From: a virus
Taxonomy: Duplodnaviria; Heunggongvirae; Uroviricota; Caudoviricetes
IMG/VR virus record: IMGVR_UViG_3300049846_001486
Location: 1-64,000 of that record
Length of the DNA: 64,000 nucleotides
Reading direction: 5' to 3' (one strand)
Notes under the pieces: generated by a model
Databases searched by the model: none
Seen by the model: the letters and a program-made list of their open reading frames with translations, nothing else
What the model was told of the DNA's origin: nothing
Part shown: piece after piece, positions 26,568 through 60,747 of the stretch
Position numbering within the stretch: the stretch's first letter is position 1
Layout of the letters: each line of letters starts with the position of its first letter
Program-made: the position numbers and the translations under genes

Positions 26568-26936
26568 ATGGCACTATATAAAGGGTACTCTACTTATAAT
26601 TATGAGAAAAATAAGTCATTAGGATTGACCGATGTTGAATTGGTCAAACAGGACATATTGAACCATTTTTATACGAGATATGGCGAAAGATTAAAGATGG
26701 CCAGATTTGGTTGTATCGTGCCGGATATGGTATTCGAGCCTATGGAAGCCCAGAATTTGGCTGCTATAGAACTGGATATTTCTAAAGTTATGAATTACGA
26801 CCCTAGAATAAGAGTAAATTCTATAGTTTCTTCGCCTGATTATGATAATAGCACACTCACGGTTGAAGTAAATATAACTTATATAGAGTTGGATTTGAAT
26901 GACCTTTTACACCTTAACATTGAATTTGAAGGATAA
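26568..26936 (+). CDS. 25: baseplate wedge protein (gp25 / GPW family)
   Basis: 122 aa. ARFGCIVPDMVFEPMEAQNLAAIELDISKVMNYDPRIRV matches the conserved gp25/GPW core (FG..L..FEP....I......P.R..V). Confidence 0.7.
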   Translation: MALYKGYSTYNYEKNKSLGLTDVELVKQDILNHFYTRYGERLKMARFGCIVPDMVFEPMEAQNLAAIELDISKVMNYDPRIRVNSIVSSPDYDNSTLTVEVNITYIELDLNDLLHLNIEFEG

Positions 26937-26941
26937 TTGAA

Positions 26942-29902: not shown

Positions 29903-32900
29903 GTGAGCAAATCTGATTATACCAAAAAGAGTTTCAATTTTAATGACTACTTACCGGGCAACCTAAGAACTGCCATCGCTAATAGTCTTAACGATAACCT
30001 ATATAATCGTTTTTATAGCAAAGACGAGTATCAGCATGTAATCGGCGTCATAGGTACTCCAAACCCAACAGATGCCTCCCAGCGTCAAATTATAGAAGCA
30101 ACTGAATATCGTCAGAATAATCAATTACAGCCCGTAATAACCGCCCAAATTGGTGCAACTAAGTACCATATGACTTTTGAGGATATGCTCAATAAGTTGG
30201 AAACATTAGGGGTGGATATTTCTCAATACCCACAATGGGGAAACTCTCTACACTTTAATTGGGTTCCGCCTATTGATTTAGACAAACTAATCAATTATCA
30301 GAACTATTTCTGGGTAACAGATGATACCCAAGATAAACCACAATACATCACTATAAAGAATCATTGTAATTGGGTCTTGGCTAGATTGCGCCAAATTAAG
30401 AAATCTGTAGCAGGAATTTATGAAAACTTTACTATAGATTCTATGGATTTAGGCACCAATGAAATAATCATCCTCGGCAATAAGCTTTCTAAATTTAGTG
30501 TTGGTGAATTTTTAGTATTGTGGAACACAGAAAAGACCTATGAAGTTTTCGAAATAACTGGAACTTCCTATAATTCTGCAACAGAAGAAACTAGAATACA
30601 ATTCAATACCGCTCTTCCAGCAGATGTTACCTTTACCTCCGCCGCTAAAACGCAACAGGACATAAAGACCACCGACGCATTCAATAACTATTTCGTGTTA
30701 GACGGTGACGCTACAGCGTTGTTCAAACAAGGGTATGTTTTCATAACACAGGGCAGCGACTTATTGCCCAGCACATATTGGAAAGTAGATAAATCCGAAT
30801 ACATCGCTCAGGGTGAAACCACTCGCATTTATCCAACCTTAGATATTCCAGCCAACGCAGACTGGACCATTATAAATTCCCTACCATTAATTGTTATGGC
30901 CGAGGCCGAGTACAAAGTAGCTTGTGAAGACTCTAGTTTAGACTACATACAAAACTGGGCAGACTTCAGAGTTGGAGACATAATCTGGCACAAATATTAC
31001 ACGGTCATAGGGCAACAGACTACGGGACAAACCACATTAGGCTCTAATGTGTTTACTGACCCTACCACAAATTTCACGGATATGGGAGTCGTTGCCGGGA
31101 ATATTTTGAGAATCACTTCGGGACATAAAGTTGGAGATTTTCCAATCGTTGATGTTTTGGATTATGATTTAACATTGTCGGATGCTGATGTATTCTTTAC
31201 TCAAACTGGCGTAACTTACGAAATAGTAAAAGAATTAGCTATTGATGATTTTAGGTCTGAAGAAGAACCAACTTCTCCGGCAGTATACGACTATTGGTTC
31301 GATACGATTAACGATAATTTAAATCAATGGAACGGATTAAGTTGGGTAACCAGACAGGGCAATTTCAGTTTAATTTTGGATTTGACAAACGACAGACATA
31401 CCTTAGATATCCTTCAAACGGATGATTGGTCTACCCAGAATAAGTGGATACACAGAAACGATGTTGGAGCCGTGTCGGGTAAAACTAGAGCGCAGCTACC
31501 AATCATAGAGTTCAACCCTTTCTTAGAAATGGCAACTACTTCCTATGTTAAGAAAGCTTGGAGATATAGAAAAACTGCATCTGCCGGGTACGCCTCGGTT
31601 GATGAACAACCAACATTGATGGAATTGATTCTTGTTGATGATTTTTCTTTCTTGGATGCTTCAACAATAATTTTCCACGAAAAATACGGTAACCTCACTT
31701 CCGATATAGTTGCTGGAGTTAAGCTAAAAATAGTAAACTCTTCTTTGGGTGAAAATAACGGAGAATACGAAGTAGCATCTTCTGAATATGTGCAGTTATT
31801 TCCTACAGAAAGATATGTCAGTAAAGTAACTTTAACTACCACAGTTCCTAATCCTCTAAACAGTACGGGAAACATAATTCCATCTAAAACTGCGGTCGGA
31901 GATTTGTTCTTGGGTATAGACCAACAACAATGGATGTTTGACGGTATAGAAGAAATCGTCCCATCCAGTAAAAAACCAACAGCAAATCCCATGTTATCCA
32001 TATTCGTTTCGTCTGATACTGACGGAACTTTAGATACTTTGTTGGGTATGGTTTGGCAGGAATTTAAATACAATACTACTACCGAAGAAGTAGGTCCAAC
32101 ATTTACTTTAGATGATTCATTACATGATTTGTGTCTTTTTGAAGATTACCAAGAAGGTGATTTGCGTGTCTATATAAATGGTGTAAGACAGTATGGTAAT
32201 TTTACAGAAGCTCGTTCCGGATTGAATCAGGAATATGTAGGTTCTATAACCTTCAATGATACGGTAACCATAACAGACAGCGATGTTGTTAGAATTGAAT
32301 TAGGGGAAGCATATTCTCTGGATATAGGCAGAAGAAGTGTACAAATAAACACTCCTACTACATTCGATGAAAAGTTCAACTTGGTAAATTACAAAAAGAC
32401 TGAACAGATAAAATTGGATACTAATGAATATCCATATTTCTGTATTTTTGATATATTCGGAACGGCTTTGGATTTCGCTTCCAAAATTTTTAGCTTCAAG
32501 GAAAATTCAGAAAATGAAATCAATCCTCATGTATCTAGAAGATTAGACTACAACGAAACTACCAGAGATTATACATTCGTACAAGGATTGTTGGGTGAGT
32601 CCCAAGAATTATACCAATATAAAGATTATCAAAAGATTGCTAACGAATTACAGTCTGTGTGGAAGGCTGGAGAAAATCTAGAACAGTTCGTGCCTTACAA
32701 AGAAAACGATGCTTGGGTAATCCCACAACAGCTATATTACAATGTTAAACACGAAAACAGAGAAGAAGTAAAATTAACTGAAATCTTCACCCATTTCAGA
32801 AACATAATAGAAAATCAGACCGCTCCATCAATATACAGTCTGACCGGAAACCTATATTACATTGATGATAATGTCAATTACGGTATAGGCGGCACTATTA

Positions 32901-35900
32901 AAGAATACAACGACAATTTCTCCACATTAGTTTCTTCGCTATTTGTGAATAATGTAAACCCGATTTCCGTAATACAGTTTGCACATAATCAGTATTTGAG
33001 TAATCTCGAATACATTAAGAATACATTAAGAACCAATATATCTTCGTTATTGTTGAATACTGAAGCTGAAGATTTAACAGAATTGACTAATTACATAATA
33101 GTCTCAGTAAAGGAACAATTTGAGGGTAATGACAGATTGGATTTGTGGTTCGGGGATAGCACAACTTATAACGAGCTTACCAAAACCGGTATTAAAAACT
33201 GGATAGCCACATTGCCTTATTTCGGATTAGTACCGAAAGTAGCTCCGTATTACATAAAAGACTCAGTTCTCGGAATTTCCGAAATGGTTCACCATGACGG
33301 TCACAGAACCCAGTTGGCTTATGATATAGCAATCAAAGAATTGATAATTAAGAACATAATAGACAATTCTAACAATGAACAGCAGATTGTAACTTCAGAT
33401 TCTGAACCATTACCAGTATTGATTAATGGCAATACTGCTAAAGACAATGATTATGTAATCAGAACAAACACTACTACTAAGACCAGAAAAGTCTATCGTT
33501 ATAGCGTAGCTAATTCTTGGGAATTAGTAGATTTCGATGATATATTGTTGAAGACTATATTGTTCATAGAACAGAAGCTTTATGAGAATTGCCCGACCAG
33601 AGTATTCTTAAATTTCAACATGGATTCGGTGAGATTGAATACTGCTTATCAAGATTTGGTAAAACAGCAGTTCTCCACATATTTGAAGAACAATCAAATA
33701 AAAACGCCTTATGACAACAAAGAATATAAGACTAACGACCCATTTACATGGAACTACGGATATACAACTATATCCACTCATCCGATGACCGGGTTGCCAT
33801 CGTCAGATGTTAAAGCAACATGGCAAGCATTATACGAAAAGGTATATGGAACTCCATACCCACATTTAGAGCCTTGGGTATTGCAGGGATATAGAATCAA
33901 ACCAGATTGGTGGGATTCTTATTATTTGAATACTAATCCATTGGTTGATAGACTATGGAAATCAACGATGTGGAACAATATATTCAATGGTATCGTACCT
34001 TTAAACAAAGATACACCTACTGGTGCCGCAGGTACAGGCGCTGCCGGTCAATTGACCGAAGTGTTCGATTTCGTATCTGTCAATGTTGATGATACTCCTA
34101 CATTAGACGGAATCAAACCCGATGGTTTGTTACCACCGTATTGGAATACCAACAATACTACCGACCCTAGAGTAAGGTCGCTATATGACGCTTCCATTCA
34201 AGAATACATAACTAATCCACAAACTGGTTATGAATTTACGCAGAGAGGCCCAAGTGAATGGAAATGGGAAGTGTCTGCCCAGCGTCTTTACGATGATGCC
34301 ATAATCGCTTTCAAACTTCAACCAATGCGCTTCATGAACCAATTATTCGGCAACTCTTTCCAAAATGTTGCCGCATTGCAAGTGGAGACGACAAACCAAA
34401 GAGTCTTCACCCCGGAATTAACCATATTCCACGGTGATTTGATTGGTGACACAAATGTAGTTTACAAAACCAATGGATTGAACCAATGGTATGTTCACTA
34501 TAACCGTTATAACGGATTCGATGGACTGTCTTCGGAATTCAGAACCTTATGGAAGAATTGGGATGTTAAATTGGGTTATGCGGTCGGCGGATTTATTGAT
34601 ACCTCAAGTTTGAGTATTTTCAACAACACTTTCGACTTAAGCACTAAAGATTACACCGTTGATATTAAGAAAACTCATGGAATATCTAACAAATGGTTGG
34701 ATTCCTTGACTTTGACCTCGTTGAGCGTACCATCCAAAACAGCAAAATATAGAGATTCTGGATTGGGATGGACAGTAGAAATTGACACCAATTCTATTTA
34801 CGGAAAGCCTGTAGAATACTATCAACCTCAGAAATACCAATTTAAGGTATTGGACGATAATGAAACTTTCAGAAGCTTTGCTTACGATATAAGCGGAGCA
34901 GACATTTCCCAAGTCCAAGGGTATCAATTAGTCAATTATAATCAGTCTTCTTACAATCAATTAGAAACAGATTTGGATAATACATTCTTCTTGTATTATG
35001 CCGATGTTTTGGTTGATAATACCACAACAATAAATTTGGCCATATATGGTGCAAATGCTCAGACCTTCGCAGAAGCTATAACAGAAATCAACGCCCAATT
35101 GGGTGACTATGCTATAGCTTATATTCAAGAAGGTAATATCATAATCAAGAGCAAGACTATAGGCATAACCTCGGCTATAGAAATAACTGATGCGGGATTG
35201 TTCGCATCGTTAGATACAGAAAAATTCTCTGGATTGGACGCTCCACAACAAACGCAGTTGAAGTTCAACGGACGCTTTTATGTTGATGGAAACATCATGT
35301 CTGTGATGGAAGCCGGGAACGAAATTACAGTTTCTGATTCTACCAATTTGAACGGAACTTACACCATCAGAGATGTGTATTTCGACATAGTAACAGGAAA
35401 GACAATAATCAGCATATCTGAAGATATAGTCATTTCCGATTCTACGATAGATGGTGAAATTTATTTGGTAGGAGAAACTACCTTAAATTCTTTCCCAGAT
35501 GAATGGGTTGACGGAACTCAAGTTACTCTAACTACGACCCAAGTAGCGCCATCCGGAATGACGGAAGATGCAGTATACTACTTCAAGAAATTAACCAATA
35601 CGGATTTCGCATTGTATACTGATTCTAGCTTAACTAACCAAGTAACAGTAAACAGTTCTGGCTCAGGCCAGCACAGTATTGGGGTTGTTGTAGGAACCTT
35701 CAAAGCTCTCAATGGAAGCGCCACTCAAACATCGTGGAAGAAATATAAGTTCGATAAGAGACAGACTAATAAAATATATCCGCCAATTTATGTATCTACC
35801 ATACAGAGTATAATTGATTTGATTTTGGGATACGGAGAATATGCTACTGATATCGGATTCTTATTAAAGACAGAAGGCCGTAACAATATTGATGAACAGA

Positions 35901-38900
35901 CCGGAAGATATAACTCATGGCAGTTAGAAACAGAAAAGGTAATAAACTGGTTATACAATTTAAGAAAGACAAACCAGCAATACATGCCTTCATATGAAGC
36001 TACCGTAAATGTTGCCACAAGCTCATTTGTAATGACAGACGCGGTTACTACTACATGGAAATCTGGAACCAAAGTTAAATTACTAACAGACGGTGGTACA
36101 TTACCAGAGCCGTTCGACAACCCATTGAAGGGGTATGTCCCATATTACATAATAAAGACCGCTGACCCGAAGATTGTACAGTTGGCGGCAACTAAAGAAG
36201 ACGCCAAGAATGGTGTTGCTATAACTGTATTGACTCCGGGAGAAGGCAATGTAATCCTACAATTATTGTCAGATACCCAGCCGGTCTATGATTACGAAAT
36301 CAACCCTTTCAAAAATTACATTTGGGTAACAAATGAATATGGCGTTTTGGCTGATGTATTCTCTGGAGTGTCTAAACTAGATACGCCTACATATCAGATA
36401 ATATATGACAATAACGGAAATGAATTAAACAACAACAATCTTATAATCTTAAGACATGATAAAGAAAGCAGATTAAGCTTGACCTTAAATCAGCAAGAGA
36501 GAAACAAGCAGATAAGTTCCGGTACCCAAAAAGGTACAGTCAGTTATATGTCCGGTATGCATCTATTCTATGATGGCTATGAGCATATAGTGTTGTTCAA
36601 TGATTATTCCATTTCTGACACACTCATCTACGATTCATTCTTAGGATTGAACACTCCGCGCTTCTTCGTGGAATTCAACAGACAAAAGAATTTCACTTTA
36701 AGACCAAATGTTGGAGGATATGTAATATCTGATGATGAGCTTGTCCAGAATATAGAATCTTCCGTTGACGATATGAGAAATTACTACGATACCGAGAGAA
36801 CCATAGAAGGTAAACAGACCACACAATTGGTAAGAAAGACCTTGGGCTATGATGGTCCTAAACAGTATATGGACGACTTAAACATAAGTGACAAATCTCA
36901 GTTCAAATTCTGGAAAGGAATGATACAAAAGAAAGGTACGAACTTTGCAATATCTGCCTTTACAAACCAAGATGTTTATGATGATGCCAACATTGACGAA
37001 TTCTGGGCATATAAGCTTGCCGAATTCGGCACTTCCAAAGCTAAAGATTATTTCGAAATGAAGGTATCTCCTAATGATTCTACAAGAAAAGAATTGAGAT
37101 TGGAGTTCGTAGCAACCGATAGTTCTCCTACCGACCCATCATGTCAAGCTGTAGAATTGACGGATTTGAGCCGTTGGGAAAATCAACCGGATGCATTAGC
37201 AGCTATGAACCCTTACAAGTCCTTCTTCTTTAACTACAAAGTCGTAGAACTTATAGATAATGCCGAGAGTGAAATAACAACAGTAAATGGTAGATATGTA
37301 TTAGAACTTTCTGAAGTTAACGATGGTGTAATAATCACTTACTACGATACCGGCGATGATTTAAGAAAGACATTGGTTAAGGGTATAGATTTTGAATTAC
37401 TTTCTCACAAAGTAGTACACTTTACTACGCCATATAACCCTTCTACCCTTCAGGCTATTAAAGTCTACGGCGTTTCTTATGATTATGAAGGACATACTCC
37501 TGTAAAATTAATAGATAAGAAGACCAAATCAACGGTATTGAATCTTCCAGTATGGAACCCGCTAAAACAAGAATACTACGCTAATGCTTATGCTGTAGTT
37601 GATATTAGAGCAGCCCAAGACCCTGCTGATTATACTAATTATCCAACTAGCGCCACTCCGGTTACCAACAATTCTTACTGGACAGAAAAGCAAGTAGGCA
37701 AAGTGTGGTTCGATTCTTCGATTGAGGGATATATGCCTTACAACGACACTTCCATATATCCTAAGTTAAATGACAGAATGTTGCTATGGGGTAAATTGGC
37801 AGAATGGGCCGATATCAACTTATATACTTGGGTAGAATCAGAAGTCCCTCCATCTGAATGGGATGCTGCTGCCGCTTCACAAGACGGAGACTATACAGTA
37901 GATTCTAAGTTCAAGAAATCCGGTACGGTAAAGAAGCGTCTTTATGAGAATACCGGGTCTCCATCTGTTCCTGTATGGCAAGAAATACAAGACCAACACG
38001 AAGAATTTGTTGCAGGTTTGGTGACTTTGAGTAACACAACGGCGTTCACAGGAAATGTTGAATACTACATTAATGGTGAGTATACGCAGACCGCCGCAAT
38101 TACAGGAGCTTCCTTCGTAACATATGCTGCCGGATTGGACCCTCAGACCATAATACATCTTGTTAAAAAGGCCGTAGTTCCTACCCAGCAACAAATAGAC
38201 GATTTAGAATACAAATACGACACCCCGTACACTTCGTTAACCAAGATTAACAAAGAAAGTGGACTACCATATCAAGTGTATTATTTCTGGGTCAATGGGT
38301 ACGACTTCGACAAGGCTACCACAGAAAAGAAAATAAATGTTCTTCATGCTGAGAAACTTTTCAAGAATATGTCCGACCCATATTGCGTAATACAGAATTT
38401 AACATCTTCTGATATCGGATATGGATTAGTGTTTGGTAATAACTTTGATGACGAGGGCGATTCTTCGTTGCCTTGGAGATACACACAATGCATCATTAAA
38501 GGTCTAGAAGGTAAAATTAAAGATAAGGATAGATATGTTCTTAAGTTCTTAAGAGACTTTTCTTTGAGGACCAACTTAGCTTCTACTGACCTTACATATA
38601 AAAACAAGCATACCGAATGGAAGTTGTTCAGAGAAAAACAGACTTCTAAGATTGATGAAGCGTTATGGAACAAAATAGTAGAGGGTATGGCAGAATATGC
38701 TGTAGTCAACAGAGTAGTTGATACTACCACACCTGCCCCGGACTATAACAGAAAACTGTTCGATGATTTATATGATTCAGATACCAGTTTTGGTATACAG
38801 GACGGTATGGTTCTAGTTGATAAACAGACCGGTCTAAACACTATAAATAAATTGTTGAACAGCACCGAGAAACAATATTCTCAAAATATAACTGATTTCT

Positions 38901-41900
38901 TGGAACAATATGATTTCGAATCCCCGGAAAATATTGTAGAAGCCATGTATCAGATTTATGATACTTTCAGTATAGATGATGTAAATTATATATTCTTTAA
39001 CATGCTTATGGACTATTTTAGTTTGAAGAAAGAGAGCAAAGACATATTCAAGACTTCTTGGGTAGCGTTGCAAGTTTCTCAAAATATAAAACCGTATACG
39101 GATTCTCAAACAGACACTATTAAATTGGAAGCTGGCGGTAAAGCCTTCTTCGGTGAATTGTCTTCTGCGGAAGCAATAGATGTTCTTCCAATTACGGACT
39201 ATCTATTGTATTTGTTGAGCGACGGAACAATCGTATATTCACTACACGACGGTTTCACGGAAACTATTGTATTAGCCCAGAACCCGCCAAGAATAGCAGG
39301 TAGCGGAGCAAGAACCGATGTATGGACAGACGGAACCTACATTTATACCACAAGTATCAACGGTGGTTTGGATGTGTACTACTATAATGGTACAAATTTC
39401 ATATTGATTGGTGGCAATACAACTCCGGGTAACCACTATGGCGTAGTAGGATTTAACCCAATCTTGGTAGTATCCGATACCGGAGAAGGCTTGATTGCTT
39501 ATGAATTTGACGGTATAGAATTAGTCAAAATAGCAACCTGTGGAGATGTTACGACCAATGTTAAAGCAGTATGCATTCATAATGGATACATAGCAACTTG
39601 TGGATATGATAGGGTTGATATTTGGCAATATACCGGATACTCATTACACCATGTAACTTTCTTACAGGGTCTGACTGGCGGTGCGGATGTTATATCCATC
39701 GCATCTGACGGCGAATATCTGTACACGGGAAGCAACAATACAACAAAGGTGCAGGTATTCTCATTTGATGGCAGCATAATCCAACAAGTGTATACTGACC
39801 CTACCATAAATTCTTCTCCGGCAATAGCCGCTGGTGGCGGTAATGTATTCTATGGTGGTATAGGTTTGAAGGTGTATAGATTTAATGGCTCGTCTTTGGT
39901 ATTACAAGATTCTATTGATGGGGTAGTTATTGACGGGTCGTTGATGTATTCTCATGATTCCAAGAGACTATATTCTTCAGATTTAGGAGTTTTTAATTTC
40001 ACTACTGGCCGCTTAGAACAGATAACAGATGTTCCTGTTCCAGTATCTCAGTTAAATTCTGGTGATGTAAGTTTGGCTGGAGCTATAAATTTACCTAAAC
40101 CAAGTCCAACTCCAACTAGAACAGTAACACCTACTATTACCGTATCTCCGACAGTTACCCCAACGAATACCCCAACTAATACAGTAACTCCTACCAATAC
40201 TAGAACAGCTAGCACAACCCCTACACCAACTAATACGACGACCCCAACGACTACCCCGACCCCAACGGTTACCCAAACAGCATCCGTGACACCAACTCCA
40301 TCAATAACCCCAACATCTACACCAACGGCAACTGTAACTCCAACTAACACGCCGACTAATACTCAAACCGCAACTCCAACGAATACGGTAACCCCAACGA
40401 ATACTCCAACGGCTACTTCAACAGTAACTCCAACGAATACGGTAACCCCAACTTACACAGTAACTCCAACGAATACACCAACCGCGTCTGTTACCCCAAC
40501 AATAACTCCAACCAACACGGTTACCCCAACTAATACTGTAACTCCTACTAATACTGTAACCCCGACAGTCACTTCTACAGCCACAGTAACCCCCACGACA
40601 GCCGCAAGCCCTACTGTTACCCCAACTAATACACCGACTGCATCGGTTACTCCTACTGTTACCCCAACTAATACACCGACTGCATCGGTTACTCCTACTT
40701 CAACAGTAACTCCAACGAATACGGTTACTCCGTCGAATACTGTAACCCCAACGAATACCCCAACGGTTACCCCTACTTCAACTGTTACCCCAACTAACAC
40801 AGTTACCCCAACAAATACCGTTACACCAACGAATACCCCAACAAACACGGTTACCCCAACGAATACTGTTACTCCAACGAATACCCCAACAAACACGGTT
40901 ACCCCAACGAATACTGTTACTCCAACTAACACCGTTACTCCAACGAATACGATAACCCCAACCAATACTCCAACGAATACAGTAACTCCAACTAACACCG
41001 TTACTCCAACGAATACCCCAACATCAAGTGTAACTCCGACTGTAACCCCTACAAGTACGGTTACCCCAACGAATACTGTTACTCCAACGAATACCGTTAC
41101 ACCAACCAATACTCCAACAAGTTCATTAACCCCTACGGTCACTCCAACGAATACCGTTACTCCAACGAATACGGCTACTCCGACTTATACTCCTACTTCA
41201 ACCGTCACTCCAACAAACACGGTTACCCCAACAAATACACCGACAGCATCAGTTACCCCAACGAATACTGTAACTCCAACGAATACCGTTACTCCAACAA
41301 ACACGGTTACCCCAACGAATACGGCAACGGCATCAGTTACGCCGACTAATACTCCAACTAATACAGTAACTCCTACTAACACAGGAACGCCCGGAGCCAC
41401 ACCGACTGTAACGCCGACAAACACCCCAACCGTTACCCCAACAAATACTATTACTCCAACTTATACTATTACCCCAACAAATACCCCAACCCCAACGAAT
41501 ACCCCAACGAATACTGTAACTCCAACTAATACAGTTACCCCAACAAATACACCGACAGCATCAGTTACCCCAACGAATACCCCAACAAATACCGTTACCC
41601 CAACGAACACAGTTACCCCAACAAATACACCGACAGCATCAGTTACCCCAACGAATACCCCAACAAATACTGTAACTCCAACTAATACCGCAACACCAAC
41701 GAATACAGCCACATCTACAGTAACCCCAACGGCATCTGTTACTCCTTCGGTAACTCCAACAAATACAGTAACTCCAACAAATACCGTTACCCCAACGAAT
41801 ACGGCTACACCAACTATAACACCTACAGTAACCCCAACTAACACAGTTACCCCGACTTATACGGTTACCCCAACGAATACAGTAACTTCGTCCATTACTC

Positions 41901-43276
41901 CAACGGCAACGGTCACCCCTACGGTAACCCCAACTAACACAGTTACCCCGACTTATACGGTCACCCCAACGAATACTGTTACTCCAACAGTTACTCCTAC
42001 ACCTTCTGTAACCCCAACAGAAACACCAACGAATACACCAACTCCGACGAATACTGTTACCCCAACAAATACTCCAACGGCTTCGTTGACTCCAACTAAT
42101 ACTCCAACCAACACGGTTACCCCAACTAATACTGTAACCCCAACGAATACCGCAACCGCATCTGTTACCCCAACGAATACCCCAACCAATACCTTTACTC
42201 CAACAAATACGGTAACACCAACTTATACAGTAACACCTACCTTTACGCCTACTGCTTCTGAAACACCAACGAATACACCAACGAATACTGTTACTCCGAC
42301 GAATACATTAACTCCTACTGTAACACCAACCCCTTCGGTTACTCCAACAGAAAGTCCTACTAATACTGTTACCCCAACTAATACGGTAACACCGACTTAT
42401 ACAGTTACTCCAACGAATACTCCTACTTCAACAGTAACTCCAACTAACACCGTTACCCCGACGAATACTGAGACCCCAACGGTAACTCCGACCGTTACAC
42501 CAACGAATACGCCAACAGTAACACCTACAAGCACGATAACTCCAACGAATACTCCAACAACAACGCCAACAAATACATTAACTCCGACGAATACAGCAAC
42601 CCCAACGATAACTCCGACGAGGACACCAACTACTACTAGAACTCCAACTAGAACTCCAACTATAACTCCAACAAATACAGCGACCCCAACGGTTACACCA
42701 ACCTTTACACCAACAAACACCGTTACGCCAACAATCACACCAACAGTCACACCAACAAGTACGGTTACACCAACCTTTACACCAACAAACACCGTTACGC
42801 CAACAATCACACCAACAGTCACACCAACAAGTACGGTTACACCAACAGTCACACCAACAGTCACACCAACGAATACGGCAACTCCAACCGTAACCCCAAC
42901 CGTTACTCCAACGAATACGGTAACTCCAACCCGTACAGTAACTCCGTCTCCAGCACCTCTAACTGTGTCTGTTGCCGATGCCGGAAATGATGCTTATACT
43001 TCATGTTCGACAGCCGTATGTGGCGGTTCATGTACTTCGAGCGACACAATAACTGCAACTCCTTCTGGGGGAACAGCGCCATATTCTTATTCTTGGACTA
43101 AAACTGCTGGTGTTGGTGCTATAACTTCTGGTTCAACATCAGCTACTTGTACGGTGTCTAGAACTGCCGGTGCTTCTATATTAACTGGTACATTTAAATG
43201 TACGGTTACGGATAATGTTGGCGGTTCGGCAAATGCAAGCATAGTAATGACCTTTGAACACGCTGACGGATGTTAA
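29903..43276 (+). CDS. giant baseplate-associated structural/adhesin protein (4457 aa): large N-terminal body (gp7 position), beta-propeller-like repeats, a roughly 950-aa Thr/Pro hexapeptide-repeat mucin-like domain, and a C-terminal Cys-containing Ig/SprB-repeat-like domain
   Basis: A single uninterrupted frame of 13.4 kb with a GTG start and GGAAG RBS, sitting where gp7 sits in T4 (after gp6). Residues about 3400-4350 are TPTNTV-type repeats. The final roughly 105 aa contain four Cys and a [10 protein letters not shown]-type motif. Confidence 0.7.
40100..42950 (+). repeat. coding tandem repeat of about 2.85 kb with an 18-nt period encoding (T-P-T-N-T-V)n and variants
   Basis: Roughly 150 imperfect copies of ACnCCAACGAATACnGTn. 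The reverse strand therefore yields artefactual VGVTV ORFs in the six-frame track. Confidence 0.9.
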
Positions 43277-43298
43277 TAAATAATAAAAGAGATTCAAA

Positions 43299-44081
43299 AT
43301 GGCCGAGTTCAGTAACAAAAATTTAAAGAATTATTTCTACATGGAACAATTCAGAAAAGCCATAGTACAGACTATGGCTGTATTTTCTGGATTAAAGGTT
43401 GCTATTGGAAAAAACGATAACGATACTGGCGATATAAACTATATTAATGTTCCAATTAAATACGGTTCAGCCGATAGAGTTGTAGCAGCAATTAAAGCGG
43501 AGAATACCCAAAATGCCGCCATTCGAGTCCCAATGTTGGCATTAAAGGTGACTAATATAGATTTGGCCGAAGGCGAAAGAAAGGGCACCAATCAAAAAAT
43601 AAAGACAAAATACCTTCCGTTTGGTGGAAAGATGCCTGATGATTTAGTAATAGCAGAAATGCTAGTACCATACCCATATAGAATGGTTTGCGAACTTGCT
43701 ATATTGGCCTCTAATACTCACCAACATTTTCAAATGTTGGAACAAATATTAATGTTATTTGACCCGACCCTACAAATACAAACTTCAGACGACCCATTAG
43801 ACCATACGAAAATTAAGAATTTGAAATTGGAATCTATAGGATTTGATGAAAATTATCCATCCGGCACGGAAAGAAGATTAATAGTTACCAATATAACAAT
43901 AGAGGTTATAATTTATCTGACAGCCCCGGTTCAATTTAGAAAAGATTACATCAAATCCGTAGTTTTAAGAATGAATTCTATTAGTGATTCAGGGACAGCT
44001 TATGAAGCGGTTTCGGCTCTCAATAACGAAACTGGCGAAAAAATAATAGATATTGAAGATTTGGATATACCCGAATCTTAA
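43299..44081 (+). CDS. tail completion / sheath stabiliser candidate (gp15-like position)
   Basis: 260-aa ORF immediately upstream of the tail sheath gene, with an ATAAATAA motif upstream. Assigned by position. Confidence 0.3.
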   Translation: MAEFSNKNLKNYFYMEQFRKAIVQTMAVFSGLKVAIGKNDNDTGDINYINVPIKYGSADRVVAAIKAENTQNAAIRVPMLALKVTNIDLAEGERKGTNQKIKTKYLPFGGKMPDDLVIAEMLVPYPYRMVCELAILASNTHQHFQMLEQILMLFDPTLQIQTSDDPLDHTKIKNLKLESIGFDENYPSGTERRLIVTNITIEVIIYLTAPVQFRKDYIKSVVLRMNSISDSGTAYEAVSALNNETGEKIIDIEDLDIPES

Positions 44082-44146
44082 AAATCTACAGTAAATAGTA
44101 CAAAGATAATAAATATTTGAGAATAACCTTTTAAGGAGTTTAGGCA

Positions 44147-46282
44147 ATGACCACATTAGTTAGCGCAGGAGTAGATGTTCCACTTATAGACCAGAGTTTT
44201 TATATTCCGGCTGGAGCAGGGACAGTACCATTAATTATAATCGCCACGGCTGCTGAAAAAACGCAAGCTGACGGCACCACGGCAGCATTAGGAACCTATG
44301 AATCTGGCGTAGTCAGAACCGTAACCTCTGGCAAACAGGCAGCAGAATTGTATGGTGTTCCAAAGTTCTATACAGATGCTTCCGGCAATCCTTTACACGG
44401 TGATGTTAGAAACGAATACGGTCTAGATGCTTTAGCTAAATTCCTTGAACTTTCAAATAGAGCATATGTACTAAGAGCAAACATCAACCTTAATGATGAC
44501 TTGGAAGACATTAAAGCTTTGTGGACCTCTAAGATTTCCGAAGCAGCAGACTATTTGAACACCTTAGTAACAGCTTATATCACAGAATATAACGACACTA
44601 ACGGTTTAGTCCCAACAGACACCGGCTATAAAGAATCAGTAACCACCGCAGAATTGAAGACCTTAGTTGATGAAGCTATGGTTGATGTTTTTGCTTTCTA
44701 TTCTTTCAACAGCACAGCATTCTCTGAAGCTTTCATTCAGGACCACACAGTTGCTTATCCGGGCTATCAGGATGTATTGTTTGAAACCACAGCAGGTTAC
44801 ATTATCGGCACCGACGCTACAGGTTTGCAGAATGATACAACTGCCTATGGATTTGAAGCTGATGTAGTAAGCACGGGCGGTACAGACTCTATTCAGATTT
44901 CTGTTCAGGGTCAGAATGCTCAAACATTCACAGCATTGATTACAGCATTGAATACCGCAGTACAGGCTGCTACCTCTTCGTCCACAACGGTCGAGTTGGT
45001 ACAGGGAAAAATCAGAATCACTTCTGACTTGACTGGTGCTACATCTTCTGTAGAAATCACAAGCGACGGTTACGGTGGAACCACAGCATTGTTCTCAAGC
45101 TTGAACTTGTTCGATTCTATTGATACCCCAGTAGCAGGTAAGGGCGTACAAACATTGTCCGTCTATAACGATGACTACACAACGGTTGTTGATTCTTACG
45201 AAGGTATGGATTCTTTGATTGACGCATGGACCTCCGGTTCTATCATTTCTACAGAGTTCACTCCTTCTGAAGCTGAAGGTCTATTATTGACAGCAGCCGC
45301 AGAATTCGACAATACAAAGGAATTCAAAAACGAAACTTCATTAGGCGCAAATGACGCTGCTAAGAGAGCAGAAGTTGTCAAACAGTTGACAGCAATCATC
45401 AAAGACCCTAATGTGGCTATCCGCACAGAAGCTATTGAGTATTCATTAGTCGTATGTCCGGGTTTCCCTGAAGTAACAAATGAGTTGAATGACCTTTCCA
45501 CAGACTTGAAGGAAGAAGTATTCGTAATCGGTGAAACACCATTCGATAAGGCTCCGACTGGTCCTAACGGTTTGGTTGAATGGGCACAAAGTCCATCCTT
45601 GGTAAATTCGGCAAATGTCGCTTACTACTATCCTCACGGTTTGTCTTCAAACATTGACGGTGCTACAATCTTAACGACAGCAGCTTCCACAATGTTGAGA
45701 GTATACGCTTACTCTGACGACAAGGGCGAGCAATGGTATGCCCCAGCCGGTCCTACCCGTGGCGTAATCACAAACTTGGATGCAATCGGTTATGTTTCCG
45801 GTACATTGGGTACAGCAACCGAATTCGTAGAGAACATGATTGACGAAGGTACAAGAGACGAGTTAACCAGCAATAAGATTAACCCAATCTCTTTCATCAA
45901 CGGTAGAGGCATTATCGTAATGGGTCAGAAGACCACTTACGGCTTATCCTCTGCATTAGATAGAGTCAATGTATCTCGTTTGACCAAGTACATTAAGAGA
46001 AGCTTGCGTAAGAACTTGTTCGCATACTTGTTCGAACCAAACGACGAAATTACCAGAAAGAATGCAAAGGCAACCGCCGACAGCTTCTTGGCTGATTTGA
46101 TGGGAAGAAGAGGGTTGTACGACTTCGCCACATTATGTGACGAATCTAACAACTACGGTGAGCGTATTGACAGAAACGAACTTTGGATTGATGTTGCAAT
46201 CAAACCAGTAAAAGCTGTCGAGTTCATCTATGTCCCAGTAACAATCGCAAGAACCGATGCAAACTTGGGTACAGGCAGATAA
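44147..46282 (+). CDS. 18: tail sheath protein (T4 gp18-like)
   Basis: 711 aa with a strong RBS (AAGGAG). It is followed by a strong intrinsic terminator and precedes the tube gene. Confidence 0.65.
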   Translation: MTTLVSAGVDVPLIDQSFYIPAGAGTVPLIIIATAAEKTQADGTTAALGTYESGVVRTVTSGKQAAELYGVPKFYTDASGNPLHGDVRNEYGLDALAKFLELSNRAYVLRANINLNDDLEDIKALWTSKISEAADYLNTLVTAYITEYNDTNGLVPTDTGYKESVTTAELKTLVDEAMVDVFAFYSFNSTAFSEAFIQDHTVAYPGYQDVLFETTAGYIIGTDATGLQNDTTAYGFEADVVSTGGTDSIQISVQGQNAQTFTALITALNTAVQAATSSSTTVELVQGKIRITSDLTGATSSVEITSDGYGGTTALFSSLNLFDSIDTPVAGKGVQTLSVYNDDYTTVVDSYEGMDSLIDAWTSGSIISTEFTPSEAEGLLLTAAAEFDNTKEFKNETSLGANDAAKRAEVVKQLTAIIKDPNVAIRTEAIEYSLVVCPGFPEVTNELNDLSTDLKEEVFVIGETPFDKAPTGPNGLVEWAQSPSLVNSANVAYYYPHGLSSNIDGATILTTAASTMLRVYAYSDDKGEQWYAPAGPTRGVITNLDAIGYVSGTLGTATEFVENMIDEGTRDELTSNKINPISFINGRGIIVMGQKTTYGLSSALDRVNVSRLTKYIKRSLRKNLFAYLFEPNDEITRKNAKATADSFLADLMGRRGLYDFATLCDESNNYGERIDRNELWIDVAIKPVKAVEFIYVPVTIARTDANLGTGR

Positions 46283-46304
46283 TCTAACTTAAGTTAGAAG
46301 CAAT

Positions 46305-46334
46305 AAAAAAGGCCAGAGTAATCTGGCCTTTTTG
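46305..46334. terminator. bidirectional rho-independent terminator
   Basis: AAAAAGGCCAGA-GTAA-TCTGGCCTTTTT, a 7-bp GC-rich stem flanked by A and T tracts, between convergent genes. Confidence 0.65.
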
Positions 46335-46351
46335 CTTATGGGATATAGACT

Positions 46352-47101: not shown

Positions 47102-47177
47102 ATATATTATGCCTCTTATTGTAGCTATAGTATTTATTAGGGTGTGGGTAAATTTTAGTAATTTTTAGTCCACTTTA

Positions 47178-47186
47178 CATAAATAC
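47178..47186 (+). promoter_or_regulatory. late-promoter-like motif CATAAATAC upstream of the tail tube gene
   Basis: About 38 nt upstream of the ATG at 47224, followed by RBS GAAGGAG. Confidence 0.35.
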
Positions 47187-47223
47187 ATTTAACTTAAATC
47201 ACTATTTTGAAGGAGATAAGCTA

Positions 47224-47811: not shown

Positions 47812-47835
47812 GAATAATCAAGAAAATTATAGAAC

Positions 47836-47866
47836 AATGGCCCATCTTTTGGGCCATTTTCTTTTC
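47836..47866 (+). terminator. rho-independent terminator after the tail tube gene
   Basis: ATGGCCC-ATCTTTT-GGGCCAT followed by TTTTCTTTTC. Confidence 0.6.
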
Positions 47867-47896
47867 TGATAAATACTTTAAATAATAGGATTACCA

Positions 47897-59367: not shown

Positions 59368-60747
59368 ATGAAAGCTGACACTATTTTTGTGCAGGTTGCG
59401 AGCTACCGTGACCCACAATTGATTCCGACTTTAGTTGACATGATTGACAATGCGGCCAAGCCACAAAATCTACATATAACCGTATGTTGGCAGCGCGGCC
59501 CAGAAGAAACCGAAGAAATGTTTTTCGAGAAAGGTTTCAAATTTATCAATAGACTTCCAAATTCAAAAGTTGAAGGTGAAGTAGTCACCTTAGAACGCAA
59601 CAAAGCGCAGATAAAATTAATTGATATTCATTTCCACAAGACCAAGGGCGCTTGTTGGGCAAGAAACCAAATACAGCAATTGTATGATGGTGAAAAATAT
59701 ACCCTACAGTTAGATTCCCACCACAGATTTGCCCCAAACTTTGATTCCGAATTAATCAAAATGATTAAAGGTTTACAGAAAGACGGGGTTAAGAAACCAT
59801 TATTGACGGGCTATATTCCTTCTTTTGACCCGGAAAGAGACCCGGAGGCCAGAGTACAAGAACCTTGGAAGATGGATTTTGACAGATTCATCCCTGAAGG
59901 CGCAGTATTCTTCTTACCATCTACTATGGAAGGGTGGAGAGAGATGACCAAACCTTTCCCTTCTAGATTCTATTCCGCTCACTTCTGTTTCACATTAGGA
60001 CAGTTCTGTGAAGAAGTACAACATGACCCAGAATATTTCTTCCACGGGGAAGAAATTGCAATCGCTGTTAGAGCATTCACGCATGGTTATGATTTGTTCC
60101 ACCCGCACCTACCATTAGTGTGGCACGAATATACCCGTAAAGGTAGAGTCAAGGTATGGGATGACCATACTACAGGCCAAAAGAATAAGGGTAGAGTCGA
60201 ATTGGATTGGGTAGAACGCAACAACATCTGCCATAGAAGAAATAGAATTCTTTTCGGCATGGATGGCGAAGACCCAAATACCATAGATTTTGGTAAGTAT
60301 GGATTCGGTAAAGAAAGAACATTAAGACAGTACGAAGAATATGCCGGTATCAGCTTCCAGTACAGAGGCGTACAGCAGAAGACCTTAGACCGTCTTCCTC
60401 CGCCGAATAATGTACCATACAATACCGAAGAAGAATGGAAGAATACTTTTAGTATGTCTAACGATATACGAATCTTATTACACAGGTCTGAACTGTTTAA
60501 TGAAGAAGGTAAATTGGAAGATGATTATGATTTCTTCTATGTTGGCGCTCATGATATTGACGGTAAAGAACTTCACAGAAAGGACTTGACTGAAGTTGAT
60601 ATTAAAGAAAAATTAATGCACGAATGGATAGATTATAGATTCATATTCATTTCAGTAAATACACCAGTAACTTACACAATTTGGCCTCATAGCAAATCTA
60701 AAGGCTGGTTAAAAAAGATAGATAAGAAGATAGTAGAAGGGACTTAA
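59368..60747 (+). CDS. GT-A fold glycosyltransferase with a DxH motif, resembling polypeptide O-GlcNAc/GalNAc-transferases (GT60/GT27-like)
   Basis: N-terminal TIFVQVASYRDP and the catalytic-region YTLQLDSHHRF (a TxLDxH DxH motif as in ppGalNAc-T FLDSHCE). 459 aa, strong RBS. Confidence 0.5.
   Translation: MKADTIFVQVASYRDPQLIPTLVDMIDNAAKPQNLHITVCWQRGPEETEEMFFEKGFKFINRLPNSKVEGEVVTLERNKAQIKLIDIHFHKTKGACWARNQIQQLYDGEKYTLQLDSHHRFAPNFDSELIKMIKGLQKDGVKKPLLTGYIPSFDPERDPEARVQEPWKMDFDRFIPEGAVFFLPSTMEGWREMTKPFPSRFYSAHFCFTLGQFCEEVQHDPEYFFHGEEIAIAVRAFTHGYDLFHPHLPLVWHEYTRKGRVKVWDDHTTGQKNKGRVELDWVERNNICHRRNRILFGMDGEDPNTIDFGKYGFGKERTLRQYEEYAGISFQYRGVQQKTLDRLPPPNNVPYNTEEEWKNTFSMSNDIRILLHRSELFNEEGKLEDDYDFFYVGAHDIDGKELHRKDLTEVDIKEKLMHEWIDYRFIFISVNTPVTYTIWPHSKSKGWLKKIDKKIVEGT

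What the first reader, a model, noticed from the sequence alone, without database searches (positions are those of the whole stretch)
42953..43276. C-terminal Cys-containing SprB/PKD-like Ig domain capping the giant protein
The final roughly 105 aa ([49 protein letters not shown]...[11 protein letters not shown]...) have the C..G..G...V..SGGT.PY.Y.W...L.AG.Y.VTVTD pattern of SprB-repeat or PKD-like beta-sandwich adhesin domains. A likely receptor-binding tip sits at the end of a 950-aa flexible stalk.
Basis: partly seen in the sequence, partly recalled or inferred. Interest (0 to 1): 0.6.

Follow-up and report, generated by a model that had tools for sequence, protein, structure and literature searches.

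The report
Ig-like tip on phage threonine-proline stalk
The last 105 residues of a 4,457-residue jumbo-phage baseplate-region protein form a genuine Ig/PKD-like domain at the end of a 954-residue threonine-proline stalk, a common kind of phage adhesion module mounted here on an unusually long and probably sugar-coated tether.

Summary
Window 42953-43276 encodes the last 107 residues of a 4,457-aa ORF (29903-43276). They pass Pfam's K319L-like PKD threshold and miss SprB by 0.1 bit. They have 2,647 HMMER relatives. AlphaFold gives an eight-strand beta-sandwich (pLDDT 95.9) that matches PKD/Ig domains and phage tail-tip and decoration proteins. Six of the protein's 17 cysteines lie in this domain, but the canonical SprB cysteine pair is absent, and the window holds only one copy.

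The giant gene sits between gp25/gp6-like baseplate genes and gp15/sheath genes. Residues 1-3078 are orthologous to XacN1-group jumbo-phage proteins. Those relatives end at the core, at a short Pro/Thr linker, or at a linker plus unrelated heads.

The stalk is a perfect [(T/S)-X]477 register. The window also encodes a PF11397 polypeptide-GlcNAc-type glycosyltransferase. In viral metagenomes this enzyme usually lies directly downstream of Thr/Pro-stalk genes.

Best reading: an accessory Ig-like adhesin on a long, probably O-glycosylated tether. A role as the primary receptor binder is not shown. The domain is ordinary; the stalk and its link to the glycosyltransferase are the interesting part.

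The parts
29903..43276 (+). Giant ORF of 4,457 aa (GTG start as listed), lying between baseplate and sheath genes.
   Evidence: PHROG 10938 'virion structural protein', E 8e-82. No Pfam family is found for the core.
29903..39136 (+). Conserved core, aa 1-3078. It is orthologous to XacN1 ORF325, Xoo-sp13_296 and the Stenotrophomonas phage CM1/RAS14 proteins (38-41% identity), and more distantly to the RsoM2USA protein.
   Evidence: Homology ends at about aa 3078. Eleven IMG/VR relatives were found.
39137..40096 (+). Lineage-specific beta-rich region, aa 3079-3398. It may be a beta-propeller, but this is unresolved.
   Evidence: Only sub-threshold beta-propeller Pfam hits. No homologues were found. 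The single-sequence AlphaFold model has pLDDT 41.6 and 28 short strands.
40097..42958 (+). Stalk, aa 3399-4352: 954 residues in an unbroken [(T/S)-X]477 register. X is mostly P, V or N, and the commonest hexapeptide is TPTNTV.
   Evidence: Composition and even-only Pro spacing. 473 of 477 even positions are T or S. The DNA repeats are imperfect. All four Thr codons are used. The minus-strand 'VGVTV' ORFs over this region are shadows of the repeats.
42962..43273 (+). C-terminal Ig/PKD-like beta-sandwich domain, aa 4354-4457, with six Cys. This is the finding itself.
   Evidence: It is the only copy in the window.
43274..43279 (+). Tandem stop codons TAA TAA. The C-terminus therefore does not depend on amber suppression.
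26568..29842 (+). gp25-like (26568-26936) and gp6-like (26942-29842) baseplate wedge genes immediately upstream of the giant ORF.
   Evidence: Pfam GPW_gp25. PHROG baseplate wedge, E 3e-292. The same gene order is annotated in XacN1.
43299..46282 (+). gp15-like tail sheath stabiliser (43299-44081) and tail sheath (44147-46282) immediately downstream of the giant ORF.
59368..60747 (+). PF11397 'Glycosyltransferase (GlcNAc)' family enzyme. It is the candidate O-glycosyltransferase for the stalk.
   Evidence: 249 bits, E 1e-73. D116-S117-H118 are invariant in alignment A3. Phage-database homologues occur only in XacN1, Xoo-sp13, CM1 and RAS14. Gene-pair statistics with Thr/Pro-stalk genes in IMG/VR.
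60751..63120 (+). Carbamoyltransferase adjacent to the glycosyltransferase. The same pair is found in XacN1.
   Evidence: A homologue is present in 18 of the 80 glycosyltransferase loci.

Best explanation
The last ~105 residues are a single Ig/PKD-like beta-sandwich of the kind that tailed phages display on exposed virion proteins. It is fused to the far end of a 954-residue extended [(Thr/Ser)-X]n stalk.

The stalk extends a giant (~3,100-aa core) protein encoded in the gp7/fibre position of a contractile-tail baseplate gene cluster in an XacN1-group jumbo phage.

The most likely mechanism has four steps.
1. The core anchors in or around the baseplate.
2. The stalk acts as a long, semi-flexible spacer with a contour length of about 0.3 micrometre. 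It is probably O-glycosylated on its threonines by the phage's PF11397 (GT60-type) polypeptide glycosyltransferase, much like a mucin or a serine-rich-repeat adhesin stalk.
3. The terminal Ig-like domain makes weak, reversible contacts with surface polysaccharide or protein on the host or its matrix. This enlarges the capture radius before the baseplate commits.
4. The six cysteines probably form disulfides after lysis and stabilise the exposed domain.

Shown: domain identity, fold, terminal position, stalk composition and register, gene context, variability of the appendage among orthologues, and the genomic linkage between this glycosyltransferase family and Thr/Pro-stalk genes.

Inferred: baseplate location, glycosylation, disulfides and adhesive function.
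For: Domain identity:
- Pfam PF22352 scores above its threshold.
- There are 2,647 HMMER relatives.
- The AlphaFold2 model has pLDDT 95.9.
- Foldseek's top solved hit is the KIAA0319 PKD domain.
- The best viral models are a tip attachment protein J (TM 0.74), a 152-aa phage protein (TM 0.79) and a Dickeya phage tail protein (TM 0.78).
- The family profile hits the Ig domain of the T5 decoration protein pb10 at 2e-12, plus Moo19 and N4 decoration proteins and AAVR.
- The nearest relatives are C-terminal copies in a lambda-J-like protein (P0111) and in tail-fibre-like proteins.

Gene context: hub, gp25-like, gp6-like, giant ORF, gp15-like, sheath, tube. XacN1 has no visible tail fibres and no fibre homologues (PMC5852040).

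Modular appendage: orthologues end at the core (RsoM2USA and 8 IMG/VR loci), at a Pro/Thr linker (RAS14, L228), at a linker plus small Cys modules (XacN1, Xoo-sp13, L229), or at a linker plus a ~560-aa head (L227).

Stalk: 473 of 477 alternate positions are Thr or Ser.

Glycosylation:
- A PF11397 enzyme is encoded in the window.
- Among 50,697 phage records it occurs only in the four phages whose orthologue carries a Pro/Thr linker.
- In IMG/VR, 48 of 78 loci have a Thr/Ser/Pro-rich protein gene directly upstream of this glycosyltransferase, against 72 of 748 other same-strand ORFs (odds ratio 15).
- One example is L036: stalk protein with lectin-like heads, then the glycosyltransferase, then a GT25 enzyme.
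- GT60 enzymes initiate mucin-type O-glycosylation in protists (PMC8724618).
Against: - There are no binding, proteomic or imaging data. Virion and baseplate location rests on synteny and a PHROG label. The XacN1 paper's text does not mention ORF325.
- Ig-like domains can be purely structural.
- Within the window the glycosyltransferase is 16 kb from the giant gene, inside a replication-gene block (DNA polymerase, 5'-3' exonuclease) and next to a carbamoyltransferase. It could therefore modify DNA or another protein.
- The IMG/VR gene-pair statistic counts related contigs as if they were independent.
- The co-occurrence in four phages may simply reflect one clade.
- The stalk length is not independently verified; the second assembly breaks inside it.
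Confidence: 0.55

Rival explanations
1. The Ig-like domain is the phage's primary, specific receptor-binding domain, and its binding commits the baseplate to infection.
For: - It sits at the extreme C-terminus of a protein in the fibre/gp7 position.
- XacN1 relatives lack recognisable tail fibres.
- Homologous domains end lambda-J-like tip proteins.
- The C-terminal module differs between orthologues, as host-range determinants do.
Against: - Many orthologues have no appendage at all yet keep the core, so recognition in the clade cannot depend on it.
- The best solved sequence relatives are accessory decoration-protein Ig domains.
- A ~950-residue Pro-rich single chain is unlikely to transmit a conformational trigger (inference).
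- A separate 320-aa beta-rich domain lies before the stalk and could be the real binder.
Confidence: 0.2
2. The stalk and cap mediate adherence to the environment rather than to the host cell. Targets would be mucus, biofilm matrix or particles, as in the 'bacteriophage adherence to mucus' model for Hoc-like Ig domains. This would keep the phage where hosts are.
For: - PHROG hits of the domain and its relatives are to Hoc-like head decoration families.
- Ig-like domains of phages bind mucins (PMC6867891, PMC11150434).
- The stalk is mucin-like and a mucin-type glycosyltransferase is present.
Against: - The domain is on a baseplate-region protein, not on the capsid.
- The sample's habitat is unknown.
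- There are no binding data.
Confidence: 0.15
3. The cap has no ligand. It is a stable folded 'stopper' or solubility and protease-protection module for a glycosylated stalk. The stalk itself would be the functional element, for example a glycan brush that shields the baseplate or is recognised by host lectins.
For: - Thr/Pro stalks in viral contigs carry many unrelated heads, and some orthologues end right after the linker.
- A Cys within the last three residues is enriched in such heads (37 of 95 against 45 of 525), which suggests a generic stabilising staple.
Against: - The heads that can be assigned are binding-type modules: Laminin_G_3, SprB, Fib_succ_major and Ig.
- The domain family is used in adhesins generally.
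Confidence: 0.08
4. The feature is an artefact. Either assembly through repeats has created a chimeric ORF, or the terminal segment is not translated as part of the giant protein.
For: The stalk DNA is repetitive, and a second assembly breaks inside it at window position 42817.
Against: - A 13.4-kb open frame in 39% G+C DNA cannot arise by chance.
- The dipeptide register is unbroken over 954 residues and runs straight into the domain.
- The domain and downstream genes are reproduced with 2 mismatches in 11 kb, none of them in the domain.
- Orthologues also carry Pro/Thr linkers at the same junction.
Confidence: 0.02

Closest known systems
Ig-like domains on phage virion proteins: the T5 decoration protein pb10 C-terminal domain (PDB 5LXK), T4 Hoc, Moo19 and N4 decoration proteins, and the T5 pb6 tail-tube Ig domain
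   Different: - It is on a giant baseplate-region protein rather than on the capsid or tube.
- It is separated from the body of the protein by ~950 residues.
- It carries an extra N-terminal beta-hairpin and six cysteines.
SprB repeats (PF13573) of Bacteroidota gliding-motility and cell-surface adhesins
   Same: The core motif SGG-x-x-PY-x-Y-x-W ... VTVTD is shared. Thousands of relatives are giant multi-repeat proteins. All nine genome hits are in Bacteroidota.
   Different: - There is a single copy, not a tandem array.
- The score is 0.1 bit below Pfam's cut-off.
- It lacks the Cys of the 'GC' after VTD that partners the N-terminal Cys in SprB-type copies.
- It is in a phage protein.
K319L-like PKD domains (PF22352), for example in AAVR/KIAA0319L
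   Different: Sequence identity is only about 18-23%. The cellular context and partners are unrelated.
Lambda gpJ-type tip attachment proteins with C-terminal host-recognition modules
   Same: The closest single-domain relative (P0111, 45% identity) carries Phage_Tail_Tip and ends with two copies of this domain. The best viral structural match is a 'Tip attachment protein J'.
   Different: This phage is a contractile-tail jumbo phage. The carrier protein has no detectable similarity to gpJ.
Dipeptide-repeat stalks of Gram-positive adhesins: serine-rich repeat glycoproteins such as Fap1/GspB, and the Ser-Asp repeats of Clf/Sdr proteins. Also the Pro/Thr linkers of cellulases. This comparison rests on my own knowledge.
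   Same: A hydroxy-amino acid occupies every second position over hundreds of residues. The stalk projects a binding module. A dedicated cytoplasmic glycosyltransferase is encoded nearby.
   Different: - The repeat is Thr-based with Pro/Val/Asn partners.
- It is in a virus.
- The enzyme family (PF11397/GT60) differs from GtfA/B or SdgA/B.
- Glycosylation is not demonstrated here.
O-glycosylated C-terminal extensions of mycobacteriophage capsid and tail-tube proteins (own knowledge; papers that mention the work are listed)
   Same: Phage-encoded glycosyltransferases are thought to modify Ser/Thr/Pro-rich tails of virion proteins.
   Different: - The enzyme families differ.
- Those tails are short.
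- They are on the capsid or tube, not on a baseplate giant protein.
- No folded cap follows them.

Membership tests
Pfam PF22352 K319L-like PKD domain | Profile score at or above the curated gathering threshold | tested here: met
   29.1 bits against a cut-off of 27, E 9.9e-7, residues 41-100 of the 107.
Pfam PF22352 K319L-like PKD domain | Ig-like or PKD-like beta-sandwich fold | tested here: met
Pfam PF13573 SprB repeat | Profile score at or above the gathering threshold | tested here: not met
   27.9 bits against a cut-off of 28.0, matching only profile positions 16-34 of 37. The miss is marginal.
Pfam PF13573 SprB repeat | Cysteine pair typical of SprB-type copies: a Cys about 23 residues before the Trp, plus the Cys of 'GC' after VTD | tested here: not met
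   Among 709 full-length copies, 71% have Cys at the column where this domain has Gly91, and that Cys co-occurs with the upstream Cys. This domain's Cys are at 18, 23, 27, 66, 83 and 107.
Pfam PF13573 SprB repeat | Occurrence in tandem arrays | tested here: not met
   A profile search of all six frames of the window finds one copy only.
Phage accessory Ig-like domains (Hoc/pb10 class) | Sequence relationship to known phage Ig-like domains | tested here: met
   The profile hits T5 pb10 at 2e-12, Moo19 at 1.5e-9 and the N4 32-kDa protein at 1.2e-6. PHROG Hoc-like families hit at E 3e-4.
Phage accessory Ig-like domains (Hoc/pb10 class) | Appended to a virion structural protein | tested here: inconclusive
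   The gene lies within the baseplate/tail module and the core hits a PHROG 'virion structural protein' family. No proteomic evidence was obtained.
Phage accessory Ig-like domains (Hoc/pb10 class) | Weak binding to surface carbohydrates or mucins | not testable with these tools
   This needs recombinant protein and glycan or cell-binding assays.
Receptor-binding protein tip | Distal C-terminal module that varies between related phages | tested here: met
   Orthologue C-termini range from nothing, to a linker, to a linker plus different heads.
Receptor-binding protein tip | Specific binding to a host receptor that is required for infection | not testable with these tools
   The host is unknown and no genetics are available.
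Mucin-like or serine-rich-repeat-like glycoprotein stalk | Long array with a hydroxy-amino acid at regular, alternating positions | tested here: met
   473 of 477 even positions are Thr or Ser, and Pro-Pro spacings are always even.
Mucin-like or serine-rich-repeat-like glycoprotein stalk | Dedicated polypeptide glycosyltransferase genetically linked to the stalk protein | tested here: inconclusive
   A PF11397 enzyme is in the window but 16 kb away. The family is directly adjacent to Thr/Pro-stalk genes in 48 of 78 IMG/VR loci and in L036. Among isolated phages it is restricted to those whose orthologue has a Pro/Thr linker.
Mucin-like or serine-rich-repeat-like glycoprotein stalk | O-glycans actually attached | not testable with these tools
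   This needs mass spectrometry of virion protein.
PF11397 / CAZy GT60 polypeptide alpha-GlcNAc transferase (window 59368-60747) | Profile score above threshold and a conserved D-x-H metal-binding motif | tested here: met
   249.3 bits against a cut-off of 21. D116-S117-H118 are invariant in alignment A3. That D-x-H is the family's catalytic motif, and that PF11397 corresponds to GT60, are from my own knowledge.

The most novel reading that the evidence does not exclude
Tailed phages possess a widespread, undescribed mucin-type O-glycosylation system. A PF11397/GT60-like polypeptide glycosyltransferase is paired with proteins built as anchor, then a [(Thr/Ser)-X]n stalk, then a binding head. 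The stalks range from tens to more than 4,600 residues.

The window's giant protein would be the baseplate-mounted version of this system. It would be a ~0.3-micrometre glycosylated 'fishing line' tipped with a disulfide-stapled Ig-like hook. In a fibre-less jumbo-phage lineage it would substitute for, or supplement, classical tail fibres.
Probability: 0.35. Interest if true: 0.7.

Novelty: new variant of a known kind. Interest (0 to 1): 0.45.

Why it matters
Ig-like modules on phage structural proteins are well known, so the domain alone adds only another member.

What could matter is the architecture around it. XacN1-type jumbo phages have no recognisable tail fibres. A variable appendage at the C-terminus of their giant baseplate-region protein is a concrete candidate for how they first contact cells.

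The stalk is a perfectly phased Thr-X array. The same phage encodes an enzyme family that elsewhere starts mucin-type O-glycosylation. In viral metagenomes that enzyme is habitually the next gene after Thr/Pro-stalk proteins.

If the linkage is functional, phages make mucin-like glycoprotein tethers. This would bear on adsorption physics, protease and immune evasion, and host-range engineering. It would also give a testable function to a large set of low-complexity 'hypothetical' phage proteins that annotation pipelines currently filter out.

Tried and rejected
- Word-indexed homologue searches of the beta-rich region and of the core end returned nothing.
- A first IMG/VR scan with a single core segment returned nothing. 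It succeeded only with an alignment.
- Loci recovered with the gp15 protein proved to be other T4-like phages, with neck genes upstream rather than a giant gene.
- Scans of metagenome and genome collections with the cap found only distant relatives (35-53% identity) and no close relative of this phage.
- Alignment A2 was too diverse to seed a locus search.
- The core matched no solved structure by sequence and no Pfam family, whether scanned whole or in 600-aa pieces.
- The single-sequence AlphaFold model of residues 3079-3400 was low-confidence (pLDDT 41.6), so I do not claim a propeller.
- NCBIfam added nothing for the cap.
- Literature searches for Thr/Pro-rich phage stalks and for PF11397/GT60 in phages found nothing relevant.
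- The head of L227 gave no match to solved structures. It shows only a weak resemblance (single-comparison E 0.002) to a Laminin_G_3 head.
- 'Phage_DsbA' in the neighbourhood is the T4 DNA-binding protein family, not a disulfide oxidoreductase (own knowledge). I did not use it as support for disulfide formation.
- I considered read-through of the stop, because an amber-suppressor tRNA is present. I rejected it because the gene ends TAA TAA.
- Cysteine pairing could not be determined, because model coordinates are not exposed. Only topology-based guesses are possible.
Full report
**1. The observation**

Window 42953-43276 is in frame with a single ORF, 29903-43276 on the + strand, of 4,457 codons. 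The gene ends TGT TAA TAA.

Six of the protein's 17 cysteines lie in the last 90 residues, and one of them is the last residue. Residues 3399-4352 form a 954-residue tract that is 47.5% Thr, 19.5% Pro, 11% Val and 10% Asn. The description is therefore accurate.

A second public assembly (Logan, SRR35532381) reproduces window 42817-53893 with two mismatches, neither of them in the domain. That contig starts inside the stalk, so the stalk length itself has no independent confirmation.

**2. What the terminal segment is**

Sequence evidence:
- Pfam gives K319L-like PKD (PF22352) at 29.1 bits, above its cut-off of 27. It gives SprB repeat (PF13573) at 27.9 bits, just under its cut-off of 28.
- An exhaustive HMMER search of 1.84 billion representatives finds 2,647 proteins at E<=1e-3. 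Most are giant proteins holding up to 60 copies. Sampled hits carry both Pfam signatures.
- A profile built from 52 copies (alignment A2) matches solved structures by sequence. The best is the Ig-like C-terminal domain of the T5 decoration protein pb10 (2e-12). Next come the Moo19 and N4 decoration proteins, AAVR PKD domains, CAR D2 and a neck-whisker protein.

Structure evidence:
- With alignment A2, AlphaFold2 gives an eight-strand all-beta model with pLDDT 95.9 and pTM 0.86.
- Foldseek's best solved match is the KIAA0319 PKD domain.
- In the viral structure library the best matches are a tip attachment protein J (TM 0.74), a 152-aa phage protein (TM 0.79) and a Dickeya phage tail protein (TM 0.78).

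The fold assignment is therefore secure.

Three qualifications apply.
1. The window holds only one copy.
2. The cysteine pattern is not the SprB one. In 709 full-length copies, a Cys just before strand B co-occurs with a Cys in the 'GC' after VTD. This domain has Gly there and places its cysteines at positions 18, 23, 27, 66, 83 and 107.
3. Scanning the whole 4,457-residue protein finds nothing, because the stalk trips the bias filter (protein 2).

The closest single-domain relatives are phage proteins. P0111 is a lambda-J-like protein (Phage_Tail_Tip) ending in two copies. P0004 is a protein with eight copies. P0058 and small 150-170-aa proteins make up the rest. Cellular relatives recovered from genomes are all in Bacteroidota.

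**3. The carrier protein and its neighbourhood**

The gene order is: baseplate hub, gp5-like hub/lysozyme, gp25-like wedge, gp6-like wedge, the giant ORF, gp15-like sheath stabiliser, sheath, two tube paralogues. The giant gene thus occupies the place of gp7 and fibre genes in contractile-tail clusters.

Residues 1 to about 3078 are 38-41% identical to the proteins that follow the wedge genes in Xanthomonas phages XacN1 and Xoo-sp13 and in Stenotrophomonas phages CM1 and RAS14. They are more weakly related to a Ralstonia phage RsoM2USA protein. The core has no Pfam family and no solved relative.

The XacN1 paper reports no visible tail fibres and no fibre homologues (PMC5852040).

**4. The appendage is a variable add-on**

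Homology stops near residue 3078. What follows differs from phage to phage:
- RsoM2USA and eight IMG/VR relatives end within about 15 residues.
- RAS14 and L228 end with a 45-55-residue Pro/Thr linker.
- XacN1, Xoo-sp13 and L229 have Pro/Thr linkers, small Cys-bracketed modules and, in the two Xanthomonas phages, a ~110-residue domain.
- L227 has a ~170-residue Pro/Thr/Val stalk and a ~560-residue head.
- The window phage has a 320-residue beta-rich region, the 954-residue stalk and the Ig-like cap.

This is the behaviour expected of an exposed, exchangeable module rather than of an essential structural part.

The beta-rich region could not be assigned. It has sub-threshold propeller hits, no homologues, and a low-confidence model with 28 short strands.

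**5. The stalk**

The stalk is not merely Thr/Pro-rich.
- One of the two alternating positions is Thr (447) or Ser (26) in 473 of 477 cases. The other holds Pro, Val, Asn, Ala and a few other residues. Pro-Pro spacings are always even.
- The DNA repeats are imperfect and all four Thr codons are used. This indicates that the peptide pattern is maintained by selection and is not the product of a recent DNA expansion.
- At 0.31-0.35 nm per residue the contour length would be about 300-330 nm (inference).

Such stalks are common in uncultivated viruses.
- A 32-nt degenerate pattern for [11 protein letters not shown] hits at least 119 IMG/VR stretches.
- 165 ORFs carry runs of at least 60 residues. 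Some exceed 4,600 residues without reaching either end of the fetched DNA.
- The flanking heads are diverse (Gly_rich_2, Fib_succ_major, SprB, Laminin_G_3 and many unassigned Cys-rich domains). Only 5 of 379 flanking pieces have this Ig family.
- None of these loci is related to the giant core.
- A cysteine within the last three residues is enriched in heads that follow stalks: 37 of 95 against 45 of 525 other ORFs. The contigs are not independent.

**6. A linked glycosyltransferase**

Window 59368-60747 encodes a PF11397 'Glycosyltransferase (GlcNAc)' protein (249 bits), followed by a carbamoyltransferase. D-S-H is invariant in an alignment with two homologues.

By my own knowledge PF11397 corresponds to CAZy GT60. 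These are the cytoplasmic and protist polypeptide alpha-GlcNAc transferases that modify Skp1 hydroxyproline and Thr-rich mucins. A review states that GT60 enzymes initiate mucin-type O-glycosylation in protists (PMC8724618).

The evidence for a link to the stalk is as follows.
- Among 50,697 phage records, homologues occur only in XacN1, Xoo-sp13, CM1 and RAS14. These are the phages whose giant-protein orthologue carries a Pro/Thr linker. RsoM2USA has none.
- IMG/VR holds at least 555 relatives of the enzyme.
- In 48 of 78 loci the gene directly upstream on the same strand encodes a protein with a Thr/Ser/Pro-rich run of at least 40 residues. The figure for other same-strand ORFs is 72 of 748 (odds ratio 15, nominal p 8e-25).
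- In L036 the order is: stalk protein with two Laminin_G_3 heads, then the PF11397 enzyme, then a GT25 enzyme.
- In the window the giant protein is the only real gene with such a run.

There are caveats. In the window and in XacN1 the enzyme sits in a replication-gene block, 16 kb and 9 kb from the giant gene respectively. A DNA or other target is therefore not excluded. The related contigs also inflate the statistics.

**7. Mechanism**

Shown:
- an Ig/PKD-like domain at the extreme C-terminus;
- a phased Thr-X stalk;
- a position in the baseplate gene cluster;
- an appendage that varies among orthologues;
- genomic linkage of this glycosyltransferase family to stalk proteins.

Inferred:
- the core is a baseplate component;
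- the stalk is an extended, probably O-glycosylated tether;
- the cap is a low-affinity adhesin that widens the capture radius;
- its cysteines form disulfides outside the cell.

I rate the primary-receptor reading lower, for four reasons. Many orthologues lack any appendage. The nearest solved relatives are accessory decoration domains. A single flexible chain is a poor signal transmitter. Another candidate binding domain precedes the stalk.

**8. Comparison with known systems, and verdict**

The cap is a new member of the well-known class of Ig-like domains on phage structural proteins. It is formally a K319L-like PKD domain by Pfam. It is not a canonical SprB repeat, because its score, cysteine pair and tandem arrangement all fail.

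The overall design is a folded head on a dipeptide-repeat, presumably glycosylated stalk. It resembles serine-rich-repeat and Ser-Asp-repeat adhesins of Gram-positive bacteria, and the Pro/Thr linkers of cellulases, more than any described phage fibre (own knowledge).

I found no paper linking PF11397/GT60 to phage stalk proteins in the searchable library.

The finding as written is correct and, on its own, ordinary. The stalk register and the glycosyltransferase linkage are what deserve follow-up.

Noticed in passing
window 1043-1118 (-): A tRNA with anticodon CTA, which reads the amber codon UAG. ARAGORN labels it tRNA-Pyl. A phage-encoded suppressor tRNA suggests stop-codon read-through or recoding somewhere in the genome.
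   Followed up: partly
window, 42 long ORFs (whole window): Stop-codon usage is 39 TAA, 3 TAG and 0 TGA, although TGA is common out of frame (1,161 against 1,381 TAA). Each of the three TAG-terminated ORFs (255-830, 18383-19525, 49042-49512) has a back-up stop 1-3 codons downstream. TGA appears to be avoided as a stop and is not used in frame either.
   Followed up: partly
window 59368-63120 (+): A PF11397 (GT60-type) glycosyltransferase and a carbamoyltransferase form a gene pair. The pair is conserved at 59-63% identity in XacN1, Xoo-sp13, CM1 and RAS14 and is absent from all other records of the phage database.
   Followed up: yes
IMG/VR loci L147-L226 (glycosyltransferase at about 10001 in most): The gene directly upstream of PF11397-type glycosyltransferases encodes a Thr/Ser/Pro-rich stalk protein in 48 of 78 viral loci. 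L036 shows the order stalk protein with lectin-like heads, PF11397 enzyme, GT25 enzyme. This looks like an undescribed conserved gene pair.
   Followed up: partly
L072 2-13885 (+); L041 508-13224 (+); L062 (- strand ORF, 3,665 aa within the locus): Viral-contig ORFs contain more than 3,600 to more than 4,600 residues of uninterrupted Thr/Pro-rich repeat and run off the fetched DNA. L041, L061 and L062 share a 56-aa N-terminal domain (MALIKINTGNFDGEIGVITFYPCTGG...).
   Followed up: no
heads following Thr/Pro stalks in L018-L136, and window 43271-43273: A cysteine within the last three residues is strongly enriched in domains that follow Thr/Pro stalks: 37 of 95 against 45 of 525. Thirteen of the 95 end exactly in Cys, as the window protein does (...ADGC).
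   Followed up: partly
L001 18187-18924 (XacN1 ORF325 C-terminus); L004 15001-15801 (Xoo-sp13): Between the Pro/Thr linkers the Xanthomonas-phage orthologues carry small Cys-bracketed modules (C-G-x-G-x-D-D-R-[IV]-L-E-[DE]-x-E-G-R-I-T-E-D-G-x-C-R). The module is repeated twice in XacN1. L229 has a similar one.
   Followed up: no
window 39137-40096 (+): A 320-residue beta-rich region lies between the conserved core and the stalk. It has no detectable homologues, sub-threshold beta-propeller hits, and a low-confidence model with 28 short strands, which would fit seven four-stranded blades.
   Followed up: partly
window 47224-47811 and 47897-49042 (+): Two adjacent tail-tube paralogues, both hitting PHROG 4542. 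They are followed by an ORF (49042-49512) with a Tn7 TnsA-like N-terminal nuclease domain.
   Followed up: no
window 1216-3371 (-): An SPFH/Band 7 domain protein (1216-2664) and a peptide deformylase (2727-3371) are encoded next to the suppressor tRNA.
   Followed up: no
window 40048-42864 (-): A series of minus-strand ORFs encode (V-G-V-T/F-V)n. They are mirror images of the stalk repeats, not genes.
   Followed up: yes
genome loci L137-L145: All nine cellular-genome relatives of the cap recovered by the pattern scan are from Bacteroidota: Flavobacteriales, Bacteroidales, Sphingobacteriales, Algoriphagus and Daejeonella. Together with the window's 39% G+C, this hints at a Bacteroidota host, unlike the proteobacterial hosts of the cultured relatives.
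   Followed up: no
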